A program made the position numbers and the translations under genes. From positions 1 through 38,239 of the forward strand of contig JWZX01003097.1 of assembly GCA_001275005.1 (NCBI GenBank): 38,239 nt of DNA, given 5' to 3'. Origin of the DNA: Chrysochromulina tobinii (lineage: Eukaryota). Under the pieces are notes generated by a model, which did not search any database, had not been told where the DNA came from, and was given only the letters and a program-made list of their open reading frames with translations. Shown one piece after another: positions 2,255 through 38,238 of the stretch; positions within the stretch are counted from its first letter, which is position 1; each line of letters starts with the position of its first letter.

Positions 2255-3062
2255 CTAGAGCAGCGGCAAATGTCTATGTGCCGAGCCGTCTTGCCGCCAC
2301 TGCTGTAGCTGCTGCTCGAGCAGCGGGTGTAGGGTGGGGGGCTCCAGTGCCGCGCCGCGCACGGCGACCCCCTCAAAGCGGAGCCTCGTTGGCATCGGGC
2401 CACAGCGTGGGCCGCCGCTCGGGGTGGCGTAGACCCGAGATTCGCTCGAGACGTCGAGCAAGACGCCTCGGTCCATTTGCGTACCGGTACGAGTCGCGCG
2501 AGCACCGTCGACTGGCGAGGCGTCCGGCGTGGAGCCTCCCAAGGCGGCTCGGCGCTGCGGACGCAACTTGCTGCCAGTGAGTGCTGCGGGCCCTCTAGGT
2601 TGCCACCAGCCTGGGGAGGTAGGCGACCTGCCGGCCTCTCCAAGCGTGCGACAGACTAGCCGCGGGGCGGACGGTGAGCTCGGTCCCTCGCACCACTGGC
2701 CCGGCTCACAGCTGACATTCCCGCCGGATCCCTCGCACCACTGGCCCGGCGGCTTTCCCATGAAGCTCTCGCCTCCGGTAAGGTTATCCAATGCCTCGCG
2801 CGAATCCGGGCGCGGCTGCGGGGGCGGCAGCGGCTGGGGCTGGGGTAGTAGTGACGAGGTAGTGGGAGGGCTCGCGAGCACAGGCCGCGGCGGCTGCAGC
2901 TGCTGCGGCTGCGGCGCCTGCAGCTGCAGCTGCGGCGGCTGCGGCGGCTGCGGTGGCTGCGGCGGCGGCTGAGGCGGTCTTGAACGCGGCGAAAGCTGCA
3001 GCTGCTGCAGCAGGCTCGCCCACTCAGGCGAAGGTAGCGGCTGCGGCTGCGGCTGCGGCTGC

Positions 3063-8160: not shown

Positions 8161-9627
8161 CTACGGCGGCTGCCTCGCTGTTGCTGTCCCACTGTTGCGG
8201 TCCCGCCTGCTGCTGTCGAACGTCCTCCGGAAGGCCACAGAGAGTTGCCACGGCGTCTCGGTGATAGCGAGGGCGATGGCGAAGGCAGCCATCGGTGAGA
8301 GCGGCGTGGCCCAGTCGACTGTGAAGAGGTGGTCGTTGAGTTTCCCCATTTGGAATGTGGGCGCCGTGTCGGGCGTCGTGTCAACATCGGCCCCAGCGCC
8401 GCGCGCACCAGCGCCGCCGCCACCGCCGCCGCCGCTGCTGCTGCTCGTTGCGCCATCGCTCGAGCGTGCGGTGGCACTCTCCGTGGCGGCAGTTGGCGGC
8501 GCCACGTGCTCGACGAGCTGAACATTCTTGACCGACGGCTGCGCTGCTCGCCCTTCGTAAGCCAGAGTGAAGGTGTGCAGCTCGGCATTCCACAGGGGCG
8601 CTTTGTTCGTGAGCGGCAGGACGTGCGGCAGCTCGTGCCTGCGCCAGCGCTCAAGCAGCGGCCCGTCGGCCTCGCATGCGCCACGGTACACGGCGTAATC
8701 GATCTGCTCCATTCCGCTCGTCTCCTCGCTCAAGTCGTCGTCGCAACGCTCGTCGTTCTGGGCGCGTGGCGCCGCACGGCCGCCCGGAATGAGCGCCAGC
8801 AGCCGCGGTGGCCCCGAACCCGAGAGCAACCGCGGGAAGGCCGTGCCGTGCTCGAATGAGAGCGCCAGCAGCACGCGTCGAGCGTGCTGCTCTGCGCCGG
8901 CGCTATCCCGCCCTGCGACGGCGCTATCCCTCCGCGAGAGTCCGTGATCATAGAGGACCCAATCGACGCCTCCAACGTCGGTCGCTCGCAGCTTGCCGAG
9001 GTAGTGCGGCGAGTCGCGCGCCATTGCGTCCAGCTCGTTCTCGAGCGACAGCACGAAGTAGGTCGTCGTTGAGCGCCGGAGTTTGCGAGCAGCCATCAGG
9101 AAGAGCAAATAGCCCGGAAGCTCAAGCCAGAATTCTAAGAGGACGGCGCCTTGTCGGCGCACCCGTTTGATCAGCGCCTGCATTGTCGCAGCGTGCCACG
9201 GCGGCCGCCGGAGCGCCTGGCGCAGCCCATGGAATGGCCTCGCAAACGGCGAGCACGGCAGCAGAGGAGGCGGGAATGAGAATGTTGCCGTCGTCAGCCG
9301 CCTGTGCAACACGGCCGGCAACGGATCACCGCGCTGCTCGTTCCATAGTGACGCGTCTCGCGGGTCAAACACACGTCGGACCACCGATGCTGACTCCACG
9401 TACGAGCCCGCGGGCAAAGGAGCGGGTGGAATCGGCAATGAGCTGCTGCTGCCGCCGTTCAGCGCACTGGAGCTGCCGCCGCCCCATGCAAGCATGGGTG
9501 ATTTCGGTTGCCACGCCGCCACCGGCACCGCTGCCCCGACGGCCCCCGCACCTGAGTCTTCTGAACTCTCTTTCAAGGAGTCGATCTCCACGACTGGCGT
9601 CGACGAGCAGCTTTCGCAGCTCCACAT
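8161..9627 (-). CDS. Tubby-like protein
   Basis: NKAPLWN...FTLAYEGRAAQPSVKNVQLV and FQMGK...FTVDWATPLSPMAAFAIAL are canonical Tubby C-terminal motifs; first ATG at 9627 (the listed GTG start lies in the retroelement end). Confidence 0.92.
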   Translation of the reverse strand: MWSCESCSSTPVVEIDSLKESSEDSGAGAVGAAVPVAAWQPKSPMLAWGGGSSSALNGGSSSSLPIPPAPLPAGSYVESASVVRRVFDPRDASLWNEQRGDPLPAVLHRRLTTATFSFPPPLLPCSPFARPFHGLRQALRRPPWHAATMQALIKRVRRQGAVLLEFWLELPGYLLFLMAARKLRRSTTTYFVLSLENELDAMARDSPHYLGKLRATDVGGVDWVLYDHGLSRRDSAVAGRDSAGAEQHARRVLLALSFEHGTAFPRLLSGSGPPRLLALIPGGRAAPRAQNDERCDDDLSEETSGMEQIDYAVYRGACEADGPLLERWRRHELPHVLPLTNKAPLWNAELHTFTLAYEGRAAQPSVKNVQLVEHVAPPTAATESATARSSDGATSSSSGGGGGGGAGARGAGADVDTTPDTAPTFQMGKLNDHLFTVDWATPLSPMAAFAIALAITETPWQLSVAFRRTFDSSRRDRNSGTATARQPP

Positions 9628-9728
9628 GCAATCGAGAACCAGAGAAGTGTGCTGTGCCAGAAGACCCAAACAATTCCGGAAAAGGAACGTAAGTTCCAAT
9701 GGGCTGACGGTACTGTACCGGTAATAAG

Positions 9729-9745
9729 ACACCGGGGGGAGCCGG
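9729..9745. repeat. Left inverted repeat of the retroelement-containing unit
   Basis: ACACCGGGGGGAGCCGG; reverse complement of 15746-15761 except for one extra G. Confidence 0.8.
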
Positions 9746-9971
9746 TAGGGTTCGCTGGGGGTGGCCTCTTCTGAGTCGGCCGCGGGGAGCGGTCGGCTCC
9801 CCCGCGGGCCTGTGGCTGACTGGCTGTTGAGTCGGCCGCGGCTTCGGTCGTCGCGCTGACGTGTGCGGGATGTGTGTTGTTGGTGGGTTTGGATGGTTGT
9901 GAGGTTCGTCTGCGTGGTCCGTGTGCCTTTGTGCGACCGCGTGTCCCGTGTGTGTCCCGTGTGTTAGAAGT

Positions 9972-10007
9972 CACACAGACACACATTCACATTCACATAC
10001 ACACATT
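9972..10007. repeat. (CACATT/CA)n low-complexity tract about 30 nt downstream of the retroelement stop codon
   Basis: cacacagacacacattcacattcacatacacacatt; possible microsatellite-type 3' tail. Confidence 0.6.
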
Positions 10008-10038
10008 AACACCATGGCGGGTACCGCGCGGGGGCGGT

Positions 10039-13000
10039 TTAGAAGGGCGACATGCCCATGGTGAGCTTGAAGCTCATGGCGGGGGCGGCGAGGAGTATGG
10101 TAGTTGCGTCCGCGAGAACGACGGCTGCCGAGATAGCCGCGCGATGGTGCGCAAGGAAGGTGTGGGGGGAGGACCGCGAGAGGCCATACCGGGTGGAATC
10201 ATGGGTGGTCGGCGCGCGTGCGTGCTTACCAAGTGCTCGCAGCGCGCGGTCGAAGGTGGGGGAGAGCGCACCCGTGGTCTCGGTAACCAGGAGGGTCACC
10301 GGGTGACCACGGCGCTGGGCGTCGGCGTAGTCGTGGCAAGGAGTCGTGGTCGCGTGTCTCGCGGATCCAGCCGGTGCCTGTGACGCGGCGCCAAGGGCCA
10401 TCAGCCTTCGCGCCCCGCTCTGGTACGCCGAGGTTGGCGACGATGAGGGCTTCCTCGGTGTTACCCATGGCGAAGCGCCCGCCGTCCGCCGTGGAGGCGG
10501 CGCCGCCCTTGTCCGTCGAGCCGAGGCCGATGGCGGGGGAGACATGGAAGGGGGTGTAGCATTTAAGCTCGTAGCAGTGCGGCTTGACACCAAACCGGAT
10601 GAAGTCCGGAACGTGGCTAGCGTTGATGTGGGCGTAGCGTTGCCTGGCGGTCTCCTTGCCAGCGGCGGTGCCATCGCCACGGTCGCCAAGGCGCAGCATG
10701 CCGGGTGGCTCGTTGGCGATGCTCAGTGAGGTGAAGGTGGTGAAGGTGGCGCGCAGCACGGCGGCGTGGCGGTGGGAATGGTTGGCTGCGTTGATGGCGG
10801 CGTCACCGAGGCGGTGGTGCTGGGTGACGTGGTGACCGGCCGCGGCGGCGGTGTCGAGGGTGGTGGCGAGCGCGCTGAGGTGGAGGCCGACACGACGCTG
10901 GGCCTGCGAGATGAAAAATTGGGAGGCGACGATGGAGCCTCGCACGCTCGTGTCGGGGAGGCGGCGGAGCCAGTCACCCGCGCCAGGCTGAGAGCAGCTG
11001 ACGAGGCGGGCAGCCTCCCGGTCGCGGACGGTGGCAAGGGAGGCATTGGCGCGATCGAACGCGTCATGGGCGGCCTTGACCGTGAACCACAGATCGCTGT
11101 TGACGACAGCCGAGAGCGACCGCTGAGTGCAGCGGTACGGTGAGGTGCTCTCGGCGCCGCCGAACAGTTCGGCAGGCTCAGGTAAGACAAAGGCGGAGGA
11201 AATGCGCGGGTGGAAGGCGCCGTGGGTGGACCCGTCGACCCATACGCGGGTGTCGCGGTCGTATTCGGCGGAGCTCGCGCGCACGCTGCCAAGGAGGGTG
11301 CGTAGGAAGACCCATGCTGCATGGAAGGCGGCGACGGTGGGGGCGGGCGAGAAGGCGATGATGGGTATGGTGGCGAGGGCGGGGCAGATGGCGCAACAGG
11401 TGGGCCAGACGGTGCAGAATGTGGCGGCGAAGGATGGATGTCGCTGGGCGAGGAGAGGCTGGGTGCCGAGGCCGCCGATGGCGATGGGGAGGCCCGCGGC
11501 GAGGAGGGCGAGCTGCCGGCGATCTTCCGGGCTGTCCGCGAAGCGGAGGAGCTCGGCGAGCGCCGTTGCGATGGCCGCGTCGGCCCACGTTGCAGCCTCG
11601 GCCGTCTGGGCAGGCGGCATGTTTTGCAGCCAATATCCCGGTATGGCATGGGCGACGAGGCGAACGAGGGTGGTGCCGAGCTGGGCGGCATGGTGGACGC
11701 GGTCGGTGTCGCACATGGCGGCGACGTGCTGCAGCGGCTTCTCAAGCCGGAGTTGGACGACAGCGAGTAGGGTAGCCGAACAGGCGTCGTCGTCGCCGAC
11801 GAAGACACCCGCGACTGGGTAGCAGCGGACGCGAGCGCGGCCGGCGGCTTGGGCGATGAAGTCGGGGTTGGTGAAGTTCGGCGACCCGGGGATGTCGGCG
11901 GGGGCAGCGGTGAGATCGCCGGCCGGCGAGTACACGAGCGCCTTGGAGGGCGCGGAGTCGACGTGGCACATCTCGTGGCACAGGCGGCGTTTGGTGGCGA
12001 GGGCGGCGAAGACGGGAGGCAAGGTGTCCTCGACGGCGGCGACGGGAGAGCCGTTGCAATAGAAGTCATCCGCCGTGGCCGCCATCTCCACCTCTGGGTG
12101 GAGGCGTTGCGCGGCCGAGCAGGCCTCGTGGTAGGCGCCGACGCAGAGGATGGTCGAGCTACCAACACCCTGGCCACCCCCCTCAAAGGAGCGTAAGATG
12201 GTGGTGCTACCGGGGCACAGGACGGTGGAGCCGTTGCTGGCGGTGGCGACGGGGATGGTGCAACCTCCGAACCAGATGGCGGCGGCGATGGCGAGGAAGA
12301 ACCTAAAGATGGGGAGGAGGCGAGGGAGGCGGAGGCGGAGGAAGTCGAATCCTGACTTCCGACAAACGCGTTGGTACATCTCCTTCACATCGTCGGAGGT
12401 GGTGGCCGAGTTGGGGTCGCGCTCCGTCCAGCCACGCGCGAGGAACGCGAGCTTGGCGGTGCCCTTTGGCGAGTAGCAGAAGTTCGCCACGAACTTGAGC
12501 GGGCGCTTGGAGTCGGCAACCGATGCTTCGGCGGCCGTGACGGCCGCGCGAGCTGCGGCGACGGCGGTGGATCCGGTGCCGAAGGCGGCATCGTGCTCGA
12601 TGGTGGCGGCGGTGAGGCGCGTCTCCGCCGCCGCGATGCGAAGTTCGCGCGCCCGAACGTCCTCGGGCAGCGGGTGGGTGAGGTGGTGGTCGAGGTCCTT
12701 GCGAATTGCAAGATTGACGACGGCCCACACCAGGCACGTCCACTTCTCGCACATGCCCAAGGGGCGGTATCCCTTCCGCTCGCCGGTCACGGCATGGAGC
12801 TTGACGAGAAGGGCCGCTCGGATGGCGCCGGCGAGGAGGTCGCGTAGGAGCGAGTGGCCCACGCCGCGGGCGACTGAGTTGATCCACCCTGTGATCGCGG
12901 CGGCGCCGCCGTGGCGCACAAGCATCTTGATAAGGCGGTTGTCTTCCGGCAAGGTGCCGGGCGCCTTGAGGTCGTGCAGGCCCTCAGCTGCGCGTGTGAC

Positions 13001-15243
13001 TTGCCGCTCAGTAAACTGGATGGGCGCGGTGCCAGGCTCGTCGGCGACGTCGGCGGCGGCGAGGGGGCGGAACGGTGTCTGCGTCGTGAAGTTGATGACA
13101 GCCCGTTTGGCGTCATCCTCCCGCGGGTCGACGGCTGGCGATGGGGAGGCGCAGCCCCAGGCCCCGCGCCAGTCGCCGTAAGAGGCGCGAAAGGCCATCT
13201 TGCGCAGTGCGTCTCCCGAGGGCTGCGTCGGGCTCGGCGGTGGGATCGGTAGGCACTCGTAGTCGATCTCCTCTTCGTCGAGCGTGGCTAAGGTGACGTC
13301 GGACTCATCGGCGACCGGGTTGAGGAGGCGGAGGGGGGCGATGTAGGCGAGCCATAGGGAGTGTGCCGTGCCAGCGAGCACTGCGCGCACCCACACGGCG
13401 GTGCGACGCCGCAGCTGTCCAGTGGTGCGCGGCTCTACCTCCGACCGAGGACGGAAGAAGACGTATGCGACCCCGAGGGTGGCCATCAGGAAGCCGAGGG
13501 CGCCGTGCAGGGTGTCCGGGGCGACACTGACGAGGTGGTGGCCGACGATGTGGGGTGCCGATAGCTCGTCGCGCTGTCGGCGGCTGTCTGGCGGGGCTTG
13601 GGCGCGGAGGTGCCTCGAGATAGCTCGAACGTCCCGGTCTATATCGATGGAGGCAAGGCAGCTCACGTCGACGTCGGCGGGGAGGGCGGGGATGGGGTAG
13701 TTGGCATCGGGTTCATCGTCGTCGCCAGTGAGGGCGGTGGTGGCGCAGGTGGCGGCGGCGGCGGCGCCGATCATCGTGGCGGCGGCCGCTGCCGTAGCTG
13801 TGGGGTGGCGTACGGACGGAATGATGGCGAGAGCCGCGCCGACGGAGCCGGGTGGGGCGATGGCGACGGCGGCGCAACGCAGTGCCGTCTCCGCGGCGCC
13901 CCACGTACCCGTGGCGACTCCGTGGACGGAGGTGCGTAGAGCCACGTGTGCCGGGCATTCACGGCAGCTGCTGGTGTGGGCGAAGAAGGAGGACCAGCCA
14001 TTGGAGGTGTCCCGGGGGAGAATGCAGCAGACGGCGGCGCACCCGACCGCTGGGCAGCGAGCGAGGGCGTGGGTGGCGAGGAGCGTCGGTGTCGCCTCAC
14101 CCACCGAGTGCTTGGTGGCGAGATGCTTGGCGAGGCACGTGCGCGATTTGTAGGAAAGGGAGGTAGCGCAGCCGGGCACTGGGCAGATGAGGGACGAGCC
14201 GTGCGCGGCGGCGTGGAGGGGCGCCAGTGGGGATGGTACGGTGGCGACGACGACCGGGGCGGCGGCGACGGCGATAGGGGAGGTGGTGACGGTGGCGGCG
14301 GTGGCAATAAAAGCAATGGGGGTGGCGGTGACGGTGGTGGCGGTGACGGCGGCGAGGGAAGTGTTGCCATGCATGGCGTGGAGGGCGGCGGCGAGCTCGC
14401 GCTTCGGTCGAAACGGGGGTGGCGCTGGCCAAGGAGCGCCCGGGGTGGGCGAGCAGCCGGGCGTCATCGAGGGGGGGGGCGGGGGGGCGGTGGTGGTGGT
14501 GGCGTGGGAGGGGGCGGGGGCAGGGGTGGTGGCGTTGGCAGCGGTGGGGGTGGCGGTGGTGGTGGGGGGGTGGGCGGTGGCGGTGGGGGTGGTTGTGGGG
14601 TCGGCGGCGGCGGCGACATGAGGAAGGCGAAGAGGGCAGGTGCAAACTGTGGCGGGCAGGAGCCGGTGGGGCTGTTTGGGCGCTTCGGTCGGCGGGTCGC
14701 GGCATCGGCTGCGTGTTCGGCCGAACCCGCGGCGATGTTGCCAGCGGTGGCGGTTAGGGCGGCCGCAGCGGCTGGGTGTTGGGCAGCAACAGCGGGGGCA
14801 AGGGTTGCGGTGAATGCGGCACCGGGTTCGGCAGGCAGCTCAAGCTTGGCATTATTGGTGTCATCGGTGGAGATCGTGGGTGTGGATGCAGGCAGTTGCG
14901 GTGAGGCAGTGGCGAGGGAGCTCGCAGCACCGTGAGCGGCTGATGTGCCGGCGGACGGTCTGCCGGGCGGGGTATGGGGTCTGGATCGTTTGTACCATTG
15001 GTTGATCGTGGCGTCGGCCGGTAGGAAATGGCCGGCGGCGGCTAGGTAGGTGGCGCACTCTTCGCGAGAAGGGTGCCCCTTGTACATGCTCCCACTGCGG
15101 TGCGTGGTCCACCGAGAGCACAGCTCCCAGTTGTCAGCGATACCGACGCCCGGGCCAAATTCGAGCGCCCTGTTGCTTGGGAGGTCGGGGACGGCCGCCG
15201 AGTAGAGCGCCTTCGATTTTTTGCCGGCATCGACGCCGACCAT
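10039..15243 (-). pseudogene. Retrotransposon polyprotein (hybrid-binding domain, poly-Pro, C2H2, RT, RLE), ~1730 aa after repairing two frameshifts
   Basis: KAPG, RPLGMCEKW, DDVKEMYQ, GGGQG, ATADD (12065-12079), LPIAIGGLG, ARLVS..GAGDWL..LP, RHAAV, PDF..ELK, ETTG. Frameshifts at the G-run ~14470-14490 and at a 13-nt insertion 10337-10349 join ORFs 14464-15609, 10226-14467 and 10039-10689. Confidence 0.88.
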
Positions 15244-15745
15244 TGTGATCAGTGCGAGGAATGTAAGCGATGGGCGAGAGAGGCGCCGGGTGTTGCGGGA
15301 GGGTGGGACGGCAGGCGGAGGCGCAAGGCGCGACGAGGTGATCGGGTTCTGAATACATATCGGATTAGGATCATGATTCTGACTCTGAGTCCGCCGCTGA
15401 TCCGCTTGGCGCCGCTCCGGCGCGCCTCGATGAGCAGTGGATGTAGAACTGGTGCTAGATGAATCAATCGCACAGGGGATCCAGCAGGAGGCACCCAAAA
15501 GGGGCACCCCCACCGGCCGCCCGCACGCTGATCGAGCTCTCGCTTTGATAACGACTCGGGTTGGGAGTACGGGTCGGGCGCATACGGGTCGGGCACATAT
15601 GACTCGCAAAACTGAAGAGGGTAGGCGGACTGGTACCGGGACATGCAGGCGGCTGCAACGGATGCACAGTGACGTCTCGGTGCCCCGACGAAGCGTCAGC
15701 GGCGGTGCAGGGGGGTGCGCGTGCGCTGCGCCTCGGGCCCGTGTC

Positions 15746-15761
15746 CCGGCTCCCCCGGTGT
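15746..15761. repeat. Right inverted repeat of the retroelement-containing unit
   Basis: CCGGCTCCCCCGGTGT, followed directly by TACCGGTAA. Confidence 0.8.
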
Positions 15762-15938
15762 TACCGGTAACTGGTACATGCGTGAGTCGTCGGAAGCCGC
15801 CACGATGCGCGAAAAATGGTATGTTTCCATGAATTCGACGTGACTTGCATGCACCATGTATCCATATATCGAGACCGGTTTCATGATCTCACACACTCTG
15901 CGAAACATGAAAAGACTGCACGTCTCAGGAGGTTGTGA

Positions 15939-17616
15939 ATGTCGGAGTGCACGCACCCGATCCATGGCGCTCCTGTCGTCGAGCCACCGGCGGGAAACAA
16001 GTCGATCATCGACATGACCGCCTCCTTTGTCGGCCGCAACGGTCCCGAGTTCGAAACGCGCATCAAGAACGAGCAGAACAATTCCAGGTTCTCATTTCTG
16101 AAGCCCAACGACCCATTCAACCCATACTACCGCGCGAAGATCATTGAGCTGGCCGGCACCTTCGCGCCCATCGCCAGCAGCGGCGACGGTGGTGGCTCTG
16201 CGGACGCCCCCAGAGCTGCGGCCGCAGACGCGAACGACAGTGGGTATGCCGAGCGTTACGCCGAGGAGCTTATCGAGTCTCTGCGAACGACCGCGATGAT
16301 CGAGTCTCTGCGTGCGACCGCGTGCGCGCTTCAGTGCGCGCTGACGGCAACGTCGGCGGCGGAGGCGGAGGCAGTATTGGTGTCGGCGGAGGCAGAGTTC
16401 CGGCACATCGGCCCGAACGCACAAATCGGCCCGAGGCGAGTCTCTGTGACAAGCCAGATTATACAACAGCCGCAGCTGTTCTCCTCTCGCCCCGTCGGCA
16501 CCGTCCAGCAGTCGTCACGCCCGCGGCTCGTGGGCTCGTTTGATGAGAGCGTTTCCTTTGGCAAGTCGGGAGCCTCGGGAGACAGCGGGAGTGAGGGCTC
16601 GACGACACCCGACGACTGTGACGTCGAATCGCCGAGGGCGCCCTGCGCAAAGTTGACGCGGGTACCCGACGACTCGGACGACGAGCCGACTGCCGCCCGA
16701 CACGGCGCCGCCCGACACGGCGCCGCCCGACACGGCGCCGCCCGACACGGTCGTCGGGTACCCGACGAGCCGCCGACGTCGCCCTGGAGCAAGGATCGGC
16801 CGGACTCGCAACGCGTGCTGCCTCGGAATGGCTCGAGATCGTTATTGCCCTTGCCGCACCCTTCTCCGCCCACGGATGCGGCGGAGGAGGCCTCGGTAGA
16901 TGAGGCAGCGGCGGAAGAGCGAAGATACTTGGCTCTTCCGCCGGCCAAGGAGGCGGATCAACGGATCTCGCGCGCCGCTGAGCTCGAGGCAGAGATGCAC
17001 TGCCTCGAGGCGGCATTGGCCTCCTCGGCAAGTATGAGCCTTGCCAGCCTACATGCACCATCTTCGACGTCGGGTCGGCGAGAGGGCACGTCGGGTAACA
17101 CGTCGGACGGCGCTCCCACGCTCATGCGCCGCAATTCCGTCATCCTGCGTGACCTGCTCGAGCACGCCGAGAACACGCGAGGGGTCCAACATCTCTTCTC
17201 GACCGAGCACCCGCGCACCCGCGAGCGGCCCGCGCGACGCCCCTTAGGTAGTGAAGAGATTTCGCCACCGACGGTGCCGCGGCCAAGTTCGCAGTTCCTG
17301 GGCGAGGCTAGGAGCAAGGCTCGCCAACCAACCATTCGGAGGTTGAGTCAAAAGTCGGTCGCGCCCAGTGCCGCGAGCCAAACCAATGTGGCCAAGGCAT
17401 GCGACGAGATGCACAGCCTCCTCTACGCGCTCCAATCGCAGGGCGTACGAATGCCGGCCGTTCCGTGGCGGGAGGAGTCATGCTCGGAGCATCTACGCCT
17501 CTTTCGGAGGCACATGGGTAGAGCGCTCTACCTGAGCCTCGTGCCTGCCTCATGGAGGCCGAGGAGCAGCAGCAACACATGCAGCAGCAGCAGCAGCAGG
17601 AGCAGCTGCAACACAT

Positions 17617-17649
<33 letters not shown>

Positions 17650-20060
17650 GCGGCGGAACAACAAATCCCGGCGGCGCGGTAGAGCGTGGCGGCGGTGGCG
17701 GCGGCGGCCGCAGCAGCAGCGCGGGCGACAGCAACGCCTCGCTTGAGAGCTACTTGCACTCGCGTTGCCTGGCCATGCCTTCGGAGCCCCGGAAGGAGTC
17801 GTGGGACATGCTGATGCTCGTGCTCATCTTGTACTCGATGTGGATGGTGCCACTGCGCATCTGCTTCGACGAGGAGGCTACCGGCTGCTGGCTCGCCTTC
17901 GAGATTCTGATCTCGATCGCCTTCATGCTGGACGTCGTGATCACGTTCAACACGGTCGTCTACGAAGCAACTACCGGCACATGGGTGCTCTCCCGCCGAC
18001 AGATTGCCCAGCGGTACCTTGGTGGGTGGTTCTGGATAGACGCGCCCGCCTCGGTTCCAGTCGAGCTGATCGACATCACAATCGACAGGTTGAGCAACTC
18101 GGGCGATACCGGCTCGCTCGGGGCTCTGCGCATGCTTCGCCTCTTTCGGCTGTTTCGGCTGCTCCGCCTCCTCAAACTCGGCGACTACATTGAGGTGCTC
18201 GAGAGCGCCGCGGACATGAACCTGAAGTTTCTCAAGATTCTCCTGATGAAGTTCCAGCTCATCGCCATCGCGCACCTCCTCGGATGCTTCTGGTTCAGTA
18301 TGTATGTGCTCAACAGCGCCGACCCTGCGCTGACGACGTGGGCGGAGACGTACGACGAGGGGAGAGCCGTCAAGGAAGGGACGAGCACGAGTCTGAAGTA
18401 CATGTACTCGATCTACTGGGCAGCCATCACACTCACCACAGTCGGCTACGGCGACGTGGTTCCGGTCAACGACAGCGAGCGCATGTACACAATCGGCGCA
18501 ATGCTCTGCGCGGCCCTCGTCTTCGGCTACATGGCGTCGGGCATCGGCCAAGTCGTCGGTTCCATGGACCGCACTCGGGCGCTTGCCGACGAGAAGACTA
18601 GCCAAATCAAGGAGTACTTGGCGTGGCGCAACCTCCCGGTGAGCCTTGCCATTCGTTTCAGAAAGTTCTATCGAGGACAACACGCGCTGCAGAATGCGTC
18701 GGTCTTCGACGAGAGGAACGAGGTCCAAATTCTCGAGGGGCTCCCACCCATGCTACGCAAAGAGGTCGAAGGCTTTGTTCAGCGACAGACCCTCGGACGC
18801 CTCCCGTTCTTTGCTGGCATGCAGATGAAAAACTCGACCTTCCAGATGGAGGTCTTCGCACTCATTCGGAACGTCTCGTACGTCAAAGGGGAGGTTGTCT
18901 TCAAGCGCGGCGAGCCCTCCCGCGCCATCATGTTCCTCTCGTCGGGCGAGGTCGTGGTCTACTCGCCCGCATCCGTCTCACCTCTCGCGCGGATCACCCC
19001 CGACACAGAGATCACGCTCATGCACGGGAACGCCGACATGGAGGTGATGCGATTCAAGCACGAGGGCTGTCTCGGTGAGACTCTGCTCACGGGGCGGCGC
19101 CGGCCTGTAACGATAGTGGCCAAGGCACACACCGAGATGCTGCTGCTGACCAACGAGGGCCTGCTCAGTCTCTTCGAAAAGAACCCCTACTCGGCGTGTA
19201 TGCTCGTTCGTCCAATTCTCCGGGAGCTCGACAGGAAGACGCGGCACGAGTTGCTAAGGTTGCGCATCCGCATGTGCACAACGTCAATCTATTCGTTCGA
19301 GTACAATGTGCTCGTCATCCAGAAGCGCTGGAAGCGCTTCGCGTGCAACCACCCGCGAGAAACCTCGATCCTCGGACGCTACTCGAGAGAATCGATCATG
19401 GCGGGTGCCCCCAAAGGTGCTCCAGCACGAGGAGCGGTAGGGCCGATGGAGGTCGAAAAGGCGGTGGCGCTGGCCGCGATCGAAGCGGCAGAAGCACGCG
19501 TCGCCGCAATGCTCAGAGAGCTCAATGTCCAGCTCGCCCACGGCCCCACCACGCCGCTGGCCCATATCAGCGCAGATCCCTCACAAGTCACGTGCTCGAC
19601 TGGTTCACATGCACGGGACGGACTGCGACACACGAGACCTCTGAGGAATCCTCCCTGGTCAGAGCTCTCCTGCCAGAGTTCTGAGGAGACCTTTCACCTG
19701 AGCTCTGAAGGGCCCTCGTACCAGAGCTCTGAGGGGCCCTCTCACCAAAAGCAGCACAGCCCCCGAAGATTAGCCAGAGCCAAAGACGTTGGCAAAGACC
19801 TCAACAAAGTCATCCAAAGCAAAGGCAAAGACCTCGACGTGAAACAACTCATTCGTCAGAAAGTGGGGACTGGTCTGGGTTCACTTGGGAATTCGCTAGA
19901 GCTCGAGGAGCTGCGCGGGGACTATATGGAACGTGACAAGGACGCGCTCTGGGCAAAAGCCGGCCTCACAACCTTGGTCTCCAAGGCCATGGATGATCAC
20001 AAGCAATTTGCAAAAAACCGAGTAGTCGGCCTTGTTCATGGCGCACAATACCTGCCATAG
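15939..20060 (+). CDS. Cyclic-nucleotide-binding (EAG/HCN/CNG-superfamily) 6TM K+ channel with N-terminal SURP/SWAP domain and IQ-like motif
   Basis: S4 LRMLRLFRLFRLLRLLKL, pore TLTTVGYGD, C-linker, cNMP domain (GEVVFKRGE...CLGE...RPVTIVA), IQKRWKRF; N-terminal IIDMTASFVGRNGPEFE...FSFL.PNDP..PYY SURP motif. Confidence 0.92.
16692..16750 (+). repeat. 15-bp coding tandem repeat x4 (ARHGA)
   Basis: GCCGCCCGACACGGC repeated four times. Confidence 0.9.
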
Positions 20061-20649
20061 AGAGTGCACGCCTTATATGATTACATGTATATGAGGCTTG
20101 AGGGTGGCGACGGACATTATGGTAAAATTATGGGGACCTAGTTTGAAGTTTCTGGTCTAGCGTGCGCTGCGTTGCGGTGCGTCATACACCTGCTTCAGAC
20201 TGTATACTGTCTAGAACAGAGCAGAAAAACCGGATCACGAATTCACGTGCGACGTGGAGCTGCGAGCTGGCGACGAGAGCGCGCGCAGCAGGCCGCTATA
20301 CACACCTCGCGAACGCTCGTGGACCGTAGAGGCGGCGGGCCGGCGGCAAGACAACGACGGTAGAATTATGACGACGGTGACAATACCCTAACCCTACTTC
20401 CCCCTCCCCCACCCACCTGATTGCTAATCACAATCCTGCCCGTAGTTATACATGTAGGGCAGCGAGCATCAGAGATCACCCTGTGTGTGCTGGGAGAGAC
20501 CGACCTCACTAGCGAAATTGAGTAGCACGAGCGAGCGAGTACATACTCAGGGGGGAACCGCGACGAAACTGATGGTTGCGCGTCTGACGTGTGAACATTC
20601 ACGAGACCCCGCGACGAGACTCGCAACTTGCTTCTTCTCCGCCGCGAGA

Positions 20650-23032
20650 ATGCTGGAGGTTGTGATGAGGGATAAAACGGAGCCTTTGTTGCCAGCCTGC
20701 GCAGCGGACCAACACCGGTCCGACCATCACGATGCGCAGCAGTACTGGCGCCACGCGCTCGCTGCCTTTGCTTTTGTGTCGGCGTTGTTGTTGGTTGTCG
20801 GTGTGCCACGCAGCCATGCCGAGTCCGGGAATGGTCAGCTGGTGGATGGTCGAGCTCTTATGGCGTGGACGCTGCTCGATCCAGATCCTAGTGCGCTTCT
20901 TTGGAAGCTGCGACAAACGCGCCGGCAGCTGCTCTCTCCGAAGGCGCTCTCCAAAGCGCCCATCGCTGATCACGAGGTGCTCATGGGATACCTTACCGTA
21001 CCATTGGATTATGATGAGGACTCGCCGGCAAACAAGATTACACTCAAGCTACGCGTGACCGCAGTGCTAGCCTGTGGGCGCTCAGAAATGTGCCCGACAC
21101 TGCTGTATCACTGTGGAGGCCCCGGAAGCACGGACAGCTGCGCCTTTTTCCAGGACGGCTACGACGGCACCTATAACGCCATCGGCATCCAGCAACGTGG
21201 CGTGTTCGATGATGGCCGGGTGTATGCGAGCGGCGTCGAGAGCGTCAGCGTGCCCACCAACCCAGATGGGCAGCCCTTTTTCAACGACTGCCCGTCGGGC
21301 GAGCACAAGACGCCGGAACCTTCGGCTGGCAAGAGGTACACGCTGGGGGACTTGACAAGTTGCGCCTGCTGGCTTCCGGACGAGTCGTACTACGCGTCGG
21401 GCGGCGTGGATCCCGAACCGATCTCGGACCCGGCAGATGAGGCTGATGTGCAGAGATGGTTTGAGTTCTCGCGCGCTCGGAATCGTCGCTGCTACCACCA
21501 CGAGTACTTTCAGATGCGCAGCCCCGATGGATCGAGCTTCAACTTTCTGGACTACGCCGGTACCCTGCTCCTCTGGATTGCCTCATGATGACCTCATGAT
21601 GACCTCTTGATGACCTCTTGATGACCTCTTGATGGCCTGATGAGCACATCGGTACCCTGCTCCTCTGGGTTGCATCATGATGGCCTCGCGAGTGCCACTG
21701 AGTGCCACTGAGTGCCACTGAGTGCCACTGAGTGCCACTGAGTGCCACTGAGTGCCGCTGAGTGCCGCTGAGTGCCACTGAGTGCCACTGAGTGCCACTG
21801 AGTGACGCGGGCTGCCTCCCTCAACAGGCACGCAGCTTCTCTCACGAGATCTCGAGAGGCTACGCCTCGCTGTTGGCGCGCGCGTGCTCAACATCGACGG
21901 AGCCTCGTATGGGACGGGCGTCGGCTCTGCCTATGCGGCCGCGTTCCCTTCTACGACGGGGCGGCTGCTGCTCAACGGCAATGCAGTCGTCCGACCAAGC
22001 ACACGCGACTATTACGTCGGCTACGCGCACGCGACGCGCCATCTGCTCTTCAAACTCGAGAGCATATGCGAGGAGATGGCCACCGAGCCGGGCGGCAACC
22101 ACTCGTTCGTGCTGCATGCGAGGGGCGTGACTGGCCGTTACGAGCTGCCCTGTGGGCTGGATGGCGACGATTCCGTCGGGGATCTGATGACCAAAGCCGC
22201 GAGCGGCGCGTTCACAGCGCGCACTCAGCACGGCGAGCCGTTCACACTGCGAGCGCCCATGCTGTACAGCTACATCGTGGACGAGATCCAAGGGAGCAAG
22301 GCAGAGGACTCGATGCCGTGGCGCACCACCATCGGCGTGCTCTCGATGCTCAGCAGCAAGGAGGGCCCCGAGTGGCCGCGGCTCGCCACCGAGCGGGTGC
22401 TCGATCGAATCTGCACTGGGTGGTATGAGTACGGCCTGTATAAGCAGGCGTACACCCCGGCTCTCCCCGAGGCGGCGGTCAACTCTCTGGACTACGAAGG
22501 ACGATACTCAATCGCGGGGGCGATGGACCTCTACCATCAGCTCAAGCGCAACTACGGGCCGATTGAGGTCGCCGTCGCCAATCTCAATGGCTTCGACATG
22601 CTCACATGGCCTGCCAAGCCCGTGCCTCCAAATTTTGGTTGGCGCGCTGGGGTGCGGGCACTCGTGGTCAACTCGCTGTACGACGGCTCCACGCCGTATC
22701 TCGACGCGCGCTGGATGCGCTTCTCGCTGCCTGACGCCACCTTCCTCACATGGCAGGGCGTAGGCCACTGCGTCGGTTCTGCGGACTATGATCAAGAGGG
22801 CGTGCAAGCGTGCCTTAAGAAGATGCGGCATTACATGAAGACGGGCGAGCTGCCAGTCGACGGCGACGTCTGCCGCAACTCGCACGAGGTCGTCCAACTC
22901 GCGCACGTGCGACAGCGAGAGCGCGAGATCAAGGCCCGAGCGGCGCGCGAGGAGGCCAGTCAGTCTGTCAGTTCGTTCGCGGCCCTACCTGCGCGCGGGA
23001 ACAAGGAGACCGGGCTCCCTAGTTTCCCCTGA
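20650..23032 (+). CDS. Membrane-anchored alpha/beta hydrolase (TAP-like peptidase), 2 exons: ~20650-21559 and 21828-23032
   Basis: LTVPLDY, HCGGPG, IQQRG; splicing yields DYAGTQLLSRDLERLRLAVG...GASYGT (nucleophile), YDGSTPY (Asp) and GVGHC (His). Start could be 20650 or 20665. Confidence 0.88.
21560..21827 (+). repeat. GT-AG intron filled with tandem repeats (ATGACCTCTTG units; GAGTGCCACT x~11)
   Basis: GT at 21560, AG at 21826-21827; removal restores the hydrolase frame; 10-bp array at ~21690-21804. Confidence 0.88.
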
Positions 23033-26073: not shown

Positions 26074-26684
26074 CCGCCCACCCGTTTATAGAGATGCCCT
26101 GTGCTCTAAAGTTCGGTCCAGGGTGATTCATTTTTATGTGAAAGACTCAACCCTGCACATCTGAGACCACCATGCTGTAGACACTGGGAGTCCTGGGGTA
26201 CCCTCTCGCTAAGACTTTCTAATAGTACACTGGATACAAGAGAGACGCAGAACCCCGACTCGCGACCCTATTTATGTCGCGAGGACTCTTTCAGTATGGT
26301 GTACGATATGGGTTAGCTTGTAGTTCAGGTAAAAGGCAGAGGTGTCCCGTGTGTGTCCCGTATGTGTGTCCCGGCTCGACCATGTCACCGAGATGAAGAT
26401 GCGCCTTATCAAGGACGCGCTTACAGTACATGTATGGCGACCGAGCGGGGCTAAGCGTTAAGCGGCCCGGCCCGGCGGCTGATCGAGTATGGCTGTGATA
26501 AGGGGGTCCAGGGGTCCCCGAGCCAGTTGTAACCGCACACGTATGTTCGCCGGTCCGGTATCTTGGGTGACGAGTTATTGGATGTGACGAAAGCGCTCGA
26601 AACGAATTTGCTGTCGGACGAGCGTCGGACCAACTCGCCGTTCACGCGCACCTCCACCTCCTACCGGCGCCCTGGCTGGATTGA

Positions 26685-37701: not shown

Positions 37702-38238
37702 CTATGCTGAGCTCGAGGTTGGGGCTGCTGCGCCACACCCATCACCGCCGCTGCCGCTGCCACCGGCAGCGCCGCGTCCGCCGCGCCCGCCACCCCCACG
37801 GCCACCCCTCCCACCCTTGCCGCCGCCTTTGCCCTTACCCTGGGCGCCGCCCTGGGCGCCGCTACGATCACCTCCGTCGTCGTCGACGAAACTGCCGCCC
37901 CCCCCACCAGCCTCGCCCCCCCCCCCACCAGCCTCGCCGCCCCCCCCACCAGCCTCGCCGCCCCCGCCGCCGCCCCCGCCAGCGTCCTTGTCTCGGTTGG
38001 CGCCGCCCTTGCCGCCCTTGCCGCCGCGCGGCCGCGCGCCGCTACCGCCGCCCCCAGCCGCCCCATCCTCGTCACCGCCGCCTCCGCCACCTCCGGCACC
38101 GTCCTTGCCGCCACCGCCCTTACCCCCGCCCTTGGCAGTCCGAGAGCCCTTACCGGTAGAACCCTTACCGCTGCCACCCTCCTTACCACCCTCCTTGCCG
38201 CCGCCGCCACCCTCCTTACCGCTCTCCTTCTGCGCTCT
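37702..38238 (-). CDS. 3' end of a gene with Gly/Lys-rich, RGG-containing tail (partial; not in the ORF track)
   Basis: Open frame from the window edge: RAQKESGKEGGGGK...GKGGRGGRGGGGRGGRG...PTSSSA-stop (TAG at 37702-37704). Confidence 0.65.
   Translation of the reverse strand, partial: RAQKESGKEGGGGGKEGGKEGGSGKGSTGKGSRTAKGGGKGGGGKDGAGGGGGGGDEDGAAGGGGSGARPRGGKGGKGGANRDKDAGGGGGGGGEAGGGGGEAGGGGGEAGGGGGSFVDDDGGDRSGAQGGAQGKGKGGGKGGRGGRGGGGRGGRGAAGGSGSGGDGCGAAAPTSSSA

What the first reader, a model, noticed from the sequence alone, without database searches (positions are those of the whole stretch)
9716..15770. RT plus restriction-like-endonuclease retroelement with DNA-transposon-like ends
Seen: the RT-RLE ORF lies between 16-17 bp inverted repeats (ACACCGGGGG(G)AGCCGG at 9729-9745 and 15746-15761), and outside them TACCGGTAA (containing the palindrome TACCGGTA) is repeated at 9716-9724 and 15762-15770; there is no poly(A) tail. 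Known: RLE-clade non-LTR elements (CRE, R2, NeSL, R4) insert by TPRT and normally lack terminal inverted repeats. Inference: this is either an undescribed retroelement class whose RNA ends base-pair and which targets a palindrome, or a CRE-like element that inserts into a MITE family.
Basis: partly seen in the sequence, partly recalled or inferred. Interest (0 to 1): 0.88.

Follow-up and report, generated by a model that had tools for sequence, protein, structure and literature searches.

The report
Retrotransposon nested in a miniature transposon
The mirror-image ends belong not to the retrotransposon but to a short, high-copy, non-coding element (likely a cut-and-paste miniature transposon) that it has jumped into, and a second copy starts at the same spot in that element, so this family likely aims for it.

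Summary
The repeats are real and at the stated coordinates, but they are two things stacked. (1) A ~280-bp non-coding element with ~30-bp terminal inverted repeats (TIRs). TACCGGTA is the palindromic tip of that TIR, not a target duplication. Three empty copies without RT were found, and contigs join its two halves directly. (2) A 5.77-kb R2-like RT-RLE non-LTR retrotransposon (minus strand, ~9964-15737), frameshifted in this copy, with a short microsatellite-like tail and a 5'-truncation depth gradient. A second copy, 5'-truncated in mid-ORF, joins the same short-element end at the same site, so site preference is likely, but tails outside the element also exist and the fraction inside was not measured. 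LINEs that target DNA transposons are known among APE-type Tx1 families; I found no RLE-type case in the searches made. The lineage also lacks the CCHC zinc knuckle (0 of 51 rows). New variant of a known kind; interest 0.38.

The parts
9716..9745 (+). Left TIR of the short element (~30 bp, palindromic TACCGGTA tip; the outer TA at 9716-9717 is the likely target duplication)
9746..9963 (+). Body of the short non-coding element, with an internal hairpin (9780-9807) and GTGTCCC/GT repeats at its right side; continues straight into the right TIR in empty copies
   Evidence: depth peak; no Rfam family; modest folding z -2.2
9956..9962 (+). CCCGTGT, candidate target-site duplication of the retrotransposon (3' side); ambiguous because the site is itself repetitive
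   Evidence: sequence, compared with empty copies
9964..10038 (-). 3' UTR (~75 nt) and GTGAAT/GT microsatellite-like tail ending CTTCTAA; no poly(A)
   Evidence: relatives L008 and L011 have similarly short UTRs
10039..10338 (-). C-terminal end of the RLE domain (Y.DA, E..G motifs), out of frame in this copy; 13 extra bases near 10329 relative to other copies
   Evidence: (table 4)
10559..10777 (-). RLE core: RH, PD and E.K motifs; no CCHC knuckle in front of RH
   Evidence: R2 alignment extends over this part
12059..12766 (-). Reverse transcriptase core (RPLG, DDVKEMY, GGGQG, ADD motifs)
14039..14185 (-). N-terminal C2H2-like zinc-finger region
   Evidence: motifs by eye; weak C2H2 hits in relatives P0025 (E 0.2) and P0035 (E 0.011)
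14464..15243 (-). Upstream frame from an ATG at 15243, with a weak RNase H1 N-terminal (Cauli_VI) match; either a separate ORF or the frameshifted start of the main ORF
   Evidence: E 0.035-0.14, below Pfam's cut-off
15244..15737 (-). 5' untranslated region of the retrotransposon; deeper than the ORF behind it, so present in several copies
   Evidence: tables 2, 4, 8
15738..15769 (+). Right end of the short element: CCCGTGT (candidate duplication, 5' side), then the right TIR 15746-15769, about 6 bases shorter than in other copies; a degenerate extra terminal unit follows to 15776

Best explanation
A reverse-transcriptase retrotransposon of the R2-like (RT plus restriction-like endonuclease) type sits inside a separate ~280-bp inverted-repeat element that also exists empty, and it likely got there by target-primed reverse transcription at a preferred site in that element. 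Shown: the nesting, the empty copies, the RT-RLE fold, a second copy with the same 5' junction, the 3'-to-5' depth gradient. Inferred: the endonuclease nicks at the GGGACACACACGGG stretch just inside one TIR; the RT copies the RNA from its CTTCTAA tail; the second cut about 7-8 bases away leaves a short duplication; early stops give 5'-truncated copies that still abut the same end. Inferred also: the short element is a MITE moved by an unseen transposase, probably duplicating TA at GTAC, and its many copies give the retrotransposon a renewable harmless target. The preference is probably not absolute.
For: Empty elements: L019, L022, L024 run from the right TIR straight into window 9964 and inward, 78-93% alike, with no retrotransposon DNA or protein; contigs of two DNA runs join 9927, 9933 and 9961 to 15741-15743. 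Summed depth in run X2 is about 44 on the flank, 11,196-21,502 over the short element, 1,942 at 10055-10325, 265-320 to 10867, about 94-205 to 13306 and 26-43 in the unique bins beyond (not a copy number). 5' junctions read at sequence level: 2 of 2 (window; L004-L007, one copy 95.5% alike, truncated at 13122) lie at the same site. A joint 9997 to 15741 (1 contig in X2, 2 in X11) fits tail-only insertions at that site, and an X13 contig with 32 differences runs from the ORF 27 bases into the element body. Protein: AlphaFold model of P0006, pLDDT 91; the top 7 Foldseek hits are R2 structures, E 1.8e-7 to 6.2e-5; R2 aligns over residues 5-933, Z 16.2, rmsd 6.1, 602 aligned; RT motifs align with an annotated RT at 97.5%. 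Relatives L008 and L011 have ~70-80-nt 3' UTRs and nothing like the short element behind them. In 6 of the 10 TIR-like ends printed the outermost TA follows G.
Against: Only two 5' junctions were read in full, and the second copy also has an internal deletion at a microhomology, so it could be a deleted derivative of an older composite rather than an independent insertion. Tails outside the element body exist: L018 (possibly a sister family) and one X11 contig where the tail lies 21 bases outside a TIR. The share of 3' ends inside the element was not measured; one search showed only 15 of 65 joints and 24 of 1023 loose ends. The duplication cannot be fixed because the site is repetitive. No transposase and no empty pre-MITE site was seen. 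Two solo ends (L021, L027) break 3-4 bases past the insertion point with no retrotransposon behind them, which the model does not by itself explain.
Confidence: 0.68

Rival explanations
1. The endonuclease recognises a short CA/TG-rich motif (about ACACAC) anywhere in the genome; the short element is simply an abundant supplier of that motif, so the nesting is frequent but not element-specific.
For: The L018 tail is followed by CACACGTG, sharing CACACG with the window's CACACGGG but outside the element. A 48%-identical 5'-truncated relative in L010 begins just after ACACACAC (exact junction unknown). RLE families specific for (TG)n are known: Togen (PMC4640811, passage read).
Against: Both full 5' junctions fall at one position although the element offers several CACAC units; one tail is followed by DNA without CACAC; the relatives L008 and L011 end next to CTGTCAC-type sequence instead.
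Confidence: 0.17
2. One chance insertion into a MITE made a composite, which was then copied as DNA through the MITE's ends (or by segmental duplication) and eroded by internal deletions; there is no targeting.
For: The second copy carries an internal deletion at a CCTTCCACCC microhomology; the 5' UTR is deeper than the ORF behind it, as deleted derivatives would give; solo ends break near the same point.
Against: A smooth fall of depth from the 3' end is the usual mark of repeated reverse transcription (established knowledge); the truncation starts exactly at the element boundary; the window's right TIR is damaged while the second copy's is of the common type.
Confidence: 0.1
3. One reading: the TIRs and the 220-bp body are the retroelement's own ends, and the short copies are its deleted, SINE-like derivatives moved by the RT.
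For: The short element carries both ends of the composite; every full 5' junction seen carries the TIR end; the body has hairpins.
Against: The tail occurs without the body; protein relatives have short UTRs and no such body; the palindrome is part of the TIR; the body joins the right end seamlessly through its own repeats in copies 78-93% alike. The relatives' contigs lack 5' ends, so unrelated TIRs on them are not excluded.
Confidence: 0.05

Closest known systems
Tx1L of Xenopus laevis, inserted in the non-autonomous DNA transposon Tx1D (PMC4494074 and PMC6719617, passages read)
   Same: A non-LTR retrotransposon nested at a preferred site in a non-autonomous TIR element, so that the composite looks like a retroelement with DNA-transposon ends.
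   Different: Tx1 families use an apurinic-like endonuclease (PMC4640811 introduction); this one has a C-terminal RLE. Specificity here rests on two full junctions, with no biochemistry.
Tx1-Mar (targets Mariner-N4_AMi) and Tx1-9_AMi (targets Harbinger elements) of crocodilians (PMC4494074, abstract passages and section 15 read, supplements not read)
   Same: Preference, not absolute specificity, for a DNA-transposon family.
   Different: APE-type, animal; here RLE-type in a GC-rich microbial eukaryote that was not identified.
R2 retrotransposon proteins (PDB 8gh6, 9nl2, 9nl3, 8ibw)
   Same: Whole RT-thumb-linker-RLE architecture aligns; 5'-truncated copies; likely target-primed reverse transcription.
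   Different: 11-13% identity; no rDNA target; no CCHC knuckle; a long helical insertion in the RT region (residues about 66-118 of P0006).
CRE-related elements CRE1/2, SLACS, MoTeR1, FoTeR (PMC12857005, passages read)
   Same: N-terminal C2H2-like fingers, RT, then RH ... PD ... E.K; many truncated copies; insertion in a repeat.
   Different: Their REL consensus begins with CCHC, absent here (0 of 51 rows); targets are spliced-leader genes (recalled) or telomeric repeats; no tree against these elements could be built here.
Togen, (TG)n-specific NeSL-related families (PMC4640811, passage read)
   Same: RLE type; target rich in TG/CA.
   Different: Fish elements in pure microsatellites; here the site is a short CA-rich stretch in a TIR element.

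Membership tests
RLE-type non-LTR retrotransposon (R2/CRE groups broadly) | Non-LTR-type reverse transcriptase | tested here: met
   Motifs conserved in 24-30 rows; profile match to PF00078-bearing P0190; RVT_1 hits in 3 of 19 family members, 2 above cut-off; Atlas neighbours carry RVT_1 in 33-50% of members; R2 top fold hits
RLE-type non-LTR retrotransposon (R2/CRE groups broadly) | C-terminal PD-(D/E)xK endonuclease with RH motif | tested here: met
   R 0.93, H 0.98, D 0.94, E 0.90, K 0.85 conserved over 66-80 rows; structural alignment to R2 reaches residue 933. Activity not tested
RLE-type non-LTR retrotransposon (R2/CRE groups broadly) | 5'-truncated copies and no LTRs | tested here: met
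   Depth gradient; copy truncated at 13122; no long direct repeat between the ends
CRE clade (CRE1/2, SLACS, MoTeR, FoTeR) | CCHC zinc knuckle in front of RH(D/N) | tested here: not met
   0 of 51 spanning rows of alignment A3 have CCHC, 7 of 51 have two or more cysteines; consensus from PMC12857005
CRE clade (CRE1/2, SLACS, MoTeR, FoTeR) | RT phylogeny groups with named CRE elements | not tested
   No named CRE protein was returned; the CRE-like look of the linker motifs is recalled
MITE (non-autonomous TIR DNA transposon) | Short, non-coding, terminal inverted repeats, many copies | tested here: met
   About 280 bp, ~30-bp TIRs, three empty partial copies; depth some hundreds of times the flank
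MITE (non-autonomous TIR DNA transposon) | Constant target-site duplication | tested here: inconclusive
   TA at both ends of the window copy; G before the outer TA in 6 of 10 ends; TA versus GTAC cannot be told without empty sites
MITE (non-autonomous TIR DNA transposon) | An autonomous transposase element with matching ends | not testable with these tools
   No whole genome held; the assignment to Tc1/mariner rests on TA and recall only
   Repeats occur without RT; the tail occurs without the repeats

The most novel reading that the evidence does not exclude
A large, undescribed lineage of RLE retrotransposons in microbial eukaryotes has lost the CCHC zinc knuckle yet keeps transposing, and this family has become a dedicated parasite of a MITE: it cuts at one fixed site just inside a TIR, rides on the MITE's spread for new targets and may take its promoter from the MITE end. 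That would be the RLE counterpart of Tx1L/Tx1D, reached independently, with a short non-rDNA target.
Probability: 0.4. Interest if true: 0.55.

Novelty: new variant of a known kind. Interest (0 to 1): 0.38.

Why it matters
It removes an apparent new retroelement class: the DNA-transposon-like ends come from a host MITE. What remains is modest but testable. Retrotransposons that target DNA transposons are on record for APE-type Tx1 families; an RLE-type case would show that the strategy arose separately in the older branch. RLE proteins are being developed for site-specific gene insertion (PMC13586686, search listing and start of abstract only), so a young family with a short new target and no CCHC knuckle would help to show which parts read the target.

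Tried and rejected
No whole genome is held and the loci could not be searched as genomes, so there is no genome-wide copy census. Viral contigs: no relative of the protein, no match to two TIR patterns. Genome contigs: 9 matches, of which 4 (L020, L023, L025, L026) share only the pattern and were dropped as chance; the other 5 are short contigs in bacterial bins that I take to be stray eukaryotic DNA (inference). L001-L003 are the window's own locus and were not counted as further copies; L003 runs into unrelated DNA at the poly-G tract, probably a misjoin. L004-L007 were counted as one copy. Pfam: nothing on the three window frames; PDB sequence searches: nothing useful. First structure model from 10 sequences failed (pLDDT 35) and was not used. 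Rfam: no ribozyme or RNA family in the element or in 9 loci. The inverted repeat in L013 looks like a sequencing adapter (recalled) and was ignored. Joints that touch low-complexity tracts (13741-13763, 13038-13051) were disregarded. RNA runs X13 and X14 are contigs with small shares and do not show transcription. DIRS-like or Penelope-like readings were considered and dropped: the fold and domain order match R2. Literature: searches for an RLE element targeting a MITE or DNA transposon returned none; subscription papers and Repbase Reports are not in the library, so this is not proof of absence. The host was not identified; a haptophyte alga is my guess from recall, and searches did not test it. 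Earlier-findings look-ups by sequence found nothing.

Full report
Observation. TACCGGTA occurs 4 times in the window against 0.09 expected. The coding region lies on the minus strand in three frames: an upstream frame from an ATG at 15243 with a weak RNase H1 N-terminal match (E 0.035-0.14), the long frame 14839-10226, and the last 100 residues in a third frame after 13 extra bases near 10329 that other copies lack (table 4). The element sits between a Tub-domain frame and a Surp/ion-channel frame of a GC-rich eukaryote; the host was not identified and no whole genome is held.

The protein. Pfam and PDB sequence searches miss it, but relatives exist at 91, 49 and 42% identity, and a profile finds 221 cluster representatives at E 1e-30 or better. 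In a 109-row alignment the RT motifs (DD..MY, GG.QG, ADD) and the RLE motifs (RH, PD, E.K, Y.DA, E..G) are conserved. The profile aligns with an annotated RT at 97.5% probability. A model of P0006 from that alignment has pLDDT 91; its top seven Foldseek hits are R2 retrotransposon structures, and R2 aligns over nearly its whole length (Z 16.2, rmsd 6.1, 602 residues), whereas other RTs cover only the N-terminal part. So it works like R2. It differs in one defining feature: none of 51 rows spanning the region has the CCHC knuckle that opens the CRE/SLACS/MoTeR endonuclease consensus (PMC12857005, passages). I therefore do not file it under CRE; no tree with named elements could be built.

The ends belong to another element. 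Contigs of two DNA runs laid on 8700-16800 give summed depth of about 44-55 on the flank, 11,000-32,000 over 9513-10054, about 1,900-2,600 at 10055-10325, 260-390 to 10867, about 90-240 to 13306 and 26-53 in the unique bins from 13307 to 15203, rising again to 450-1,100 at 15204-15745. The tool warns that this is no copy number, but the shape is clear: a very abundant short repeat at the left end and a fall from the retrotransposon's 3' end, the usual sign of 5' truncation. Contigs join 9927, 9933 and 9961 directly to 15741-15743. A pattern scan gave 9 matches: 4 chance matches in bacterial DNA, 3 partial empty copies (L019, L022, L024) that run from the right end straight into window 9964 and inward at 78-93% identity, and 2 solo ends (L021, L027). 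None of these 5 contigs holds retrotransposon DNA or protein. Aligned ends read TACCGGTAAAAAGACACCGGGGGGAGCCGG: one TIR of about 30 bases. Its palindromic tip reads the same both ways, and the window's right arm has lost about 6 bases, which produced the look of a repeat plus a 9-base duplication. The empty element is about 280 bp, non-coding, with no Rfam match. It begins and ends with TA, preceded by G in 6 of 10 ends; a MITE duplicating TA at GTAC is the likely reading, though no transposase or empty site was seen.

Where the retrotransposon ends. After the stop at 10039 come about 75 bases ending in GTGAAT/GT repeats and CTTCTAA at about 9964. Relatives L008 and L011 have equally short UTRs and no similarity to the short element behind them; their contigs lack 5' ends, so unrelated TIRs are not excluded for them. 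The same tail occurs next to other DNA in L018, possibly a sister family, and in one contig 21 bases outside a TIR. CCCGTGT at 9956-9962 and 15738-15744 is a candidate duplication, uncertain because the site is repetitive.

Targeting. The metagenome scan returned 18 loci: 3 are the window's locus, 4 are one further copy (95.5% alike, 5'-truncated at 13122), 11 are distant relatives. That second copy begins right after TIR-GGGACACACACGGG, the same site as in the window: 2 of 2 full 5' junctions. A joint 9997 to 15741 in both DNA runs fits tail-only insertions there, and an RNA-run contig with 32 differences continues from the ORF 27 bases into the element body, short of the 31 the tool asks for. 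Against: the second copy has an internal deletion at a microhomology and might descend from an older composite; tails outside the element exist; a distant relative in L010 also starts after ACACACAC, which suggests that a short CA-rich motif may be the real target; one search showed only 15 of 65 joints and 24 of 1023 loose ends, and the share of tails inside the element remains unmeasured.

Mechanism. Most likely (0.68) the endonuclease nicks the CA-rich stretch inside one TIR, the RT primes there on the RNA's tail, and a second cut 7-8 bases away leaves a short duplication; incomplete copying gives truncated copies against the same end. The nesting itself is common to the first three.

Comparison with what is known. 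Tx1L inserts into the non-autonomous DNA transposon Tx1D (PMC4494074, PMC6719617; passages); crocodilian Tx1-Mar and Tx1-9_AMi prefer Mariner and Harbinger elements (PMC4494074 section 15; supplements not read). These use an apurinic-like endonuclease. RLE elements target rRNA, snRNA, tRNA and spliced-leader genes, telomeres and microsatellites, among them (TG)n for Togen (PMC4640811; abstract, introduction, first results and passages; its supplements not read and they list further targets). Six searches found no RLE element targeting a MITE, but the library lacks most subscription papers and Repbase Reports. An earlier scan note describes a Tx1 element inside a MITE end in another genome; it is an unchecked lead.

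Verdict. Real feature, misparsed: an R2-like retrotransposon nested in a MITE, probably by preference. New variant of a known kind; interest 0.38.

Noticed in passing
L004:2385-2470 (same in L005-L007): Three TIR ends are stacked before the truncated copy, two of them forming a perfect 60-bp palindrome centred on TACCGGTA; this is what insertion of one element into the inner TA of another's TIR would give.
   Followed up: partly
L021:1580-1640 and L027:480-540: Solo 45-48-bp right ends that break 3-4 bases past the retrotransposon's insertion point, with unrelated DNA behind; L021 has TA on both sides. Could be abortive repair or scars of endonuclease cuts.
   Followed up: partly
window 15321-15737: The 5' untranslated region is several-fold deeper than the ORF behind it, which is single-copy; suggests internally deleted two-part derivatives.
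   Followed up: no
window 2481-2490 and 38151-38158: Solo TACCGGTA palindromes; the first reads G-TACCGGTA-C, as an excision footprint at a GTAC site might. Untested.
   Followed up: no
window 26342-26378: A decayed fragment of the short element's GTGTCCC repeats and the first bases of its TIR.
   Followed up: partly
window 15762-15777; L019; L027: Three of six right ends carry a partial extra copy of the terminal CCGGTA unit.
   Followed up: no
window 21570-21810: Adjacent 11-mer and 10-mer tandem arrays lie between two frames (20458-21588, 21806-23032) that look by eye like halves of one hydrolase gene; possibly a repeat-filled intron.
   Followed up: no
L007:1-3520: A ~1.2-kb tandem repeat, 89-97% alike, lies upstream of the truncated copy; no Rfam match.
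   Followed up: partly
L015:1056-1511: A ~450-bp AT-rich insert with inverted ends interrupts the RT of a distant relative: the reverse nesting.
   Followed up: no
L019, L021, L022, L024, L027: Short contigs filed in bacterial genome bins carry this eukaryotic repeat, which points to stray eukaryotic DNA in those bins.
   Followed up: no
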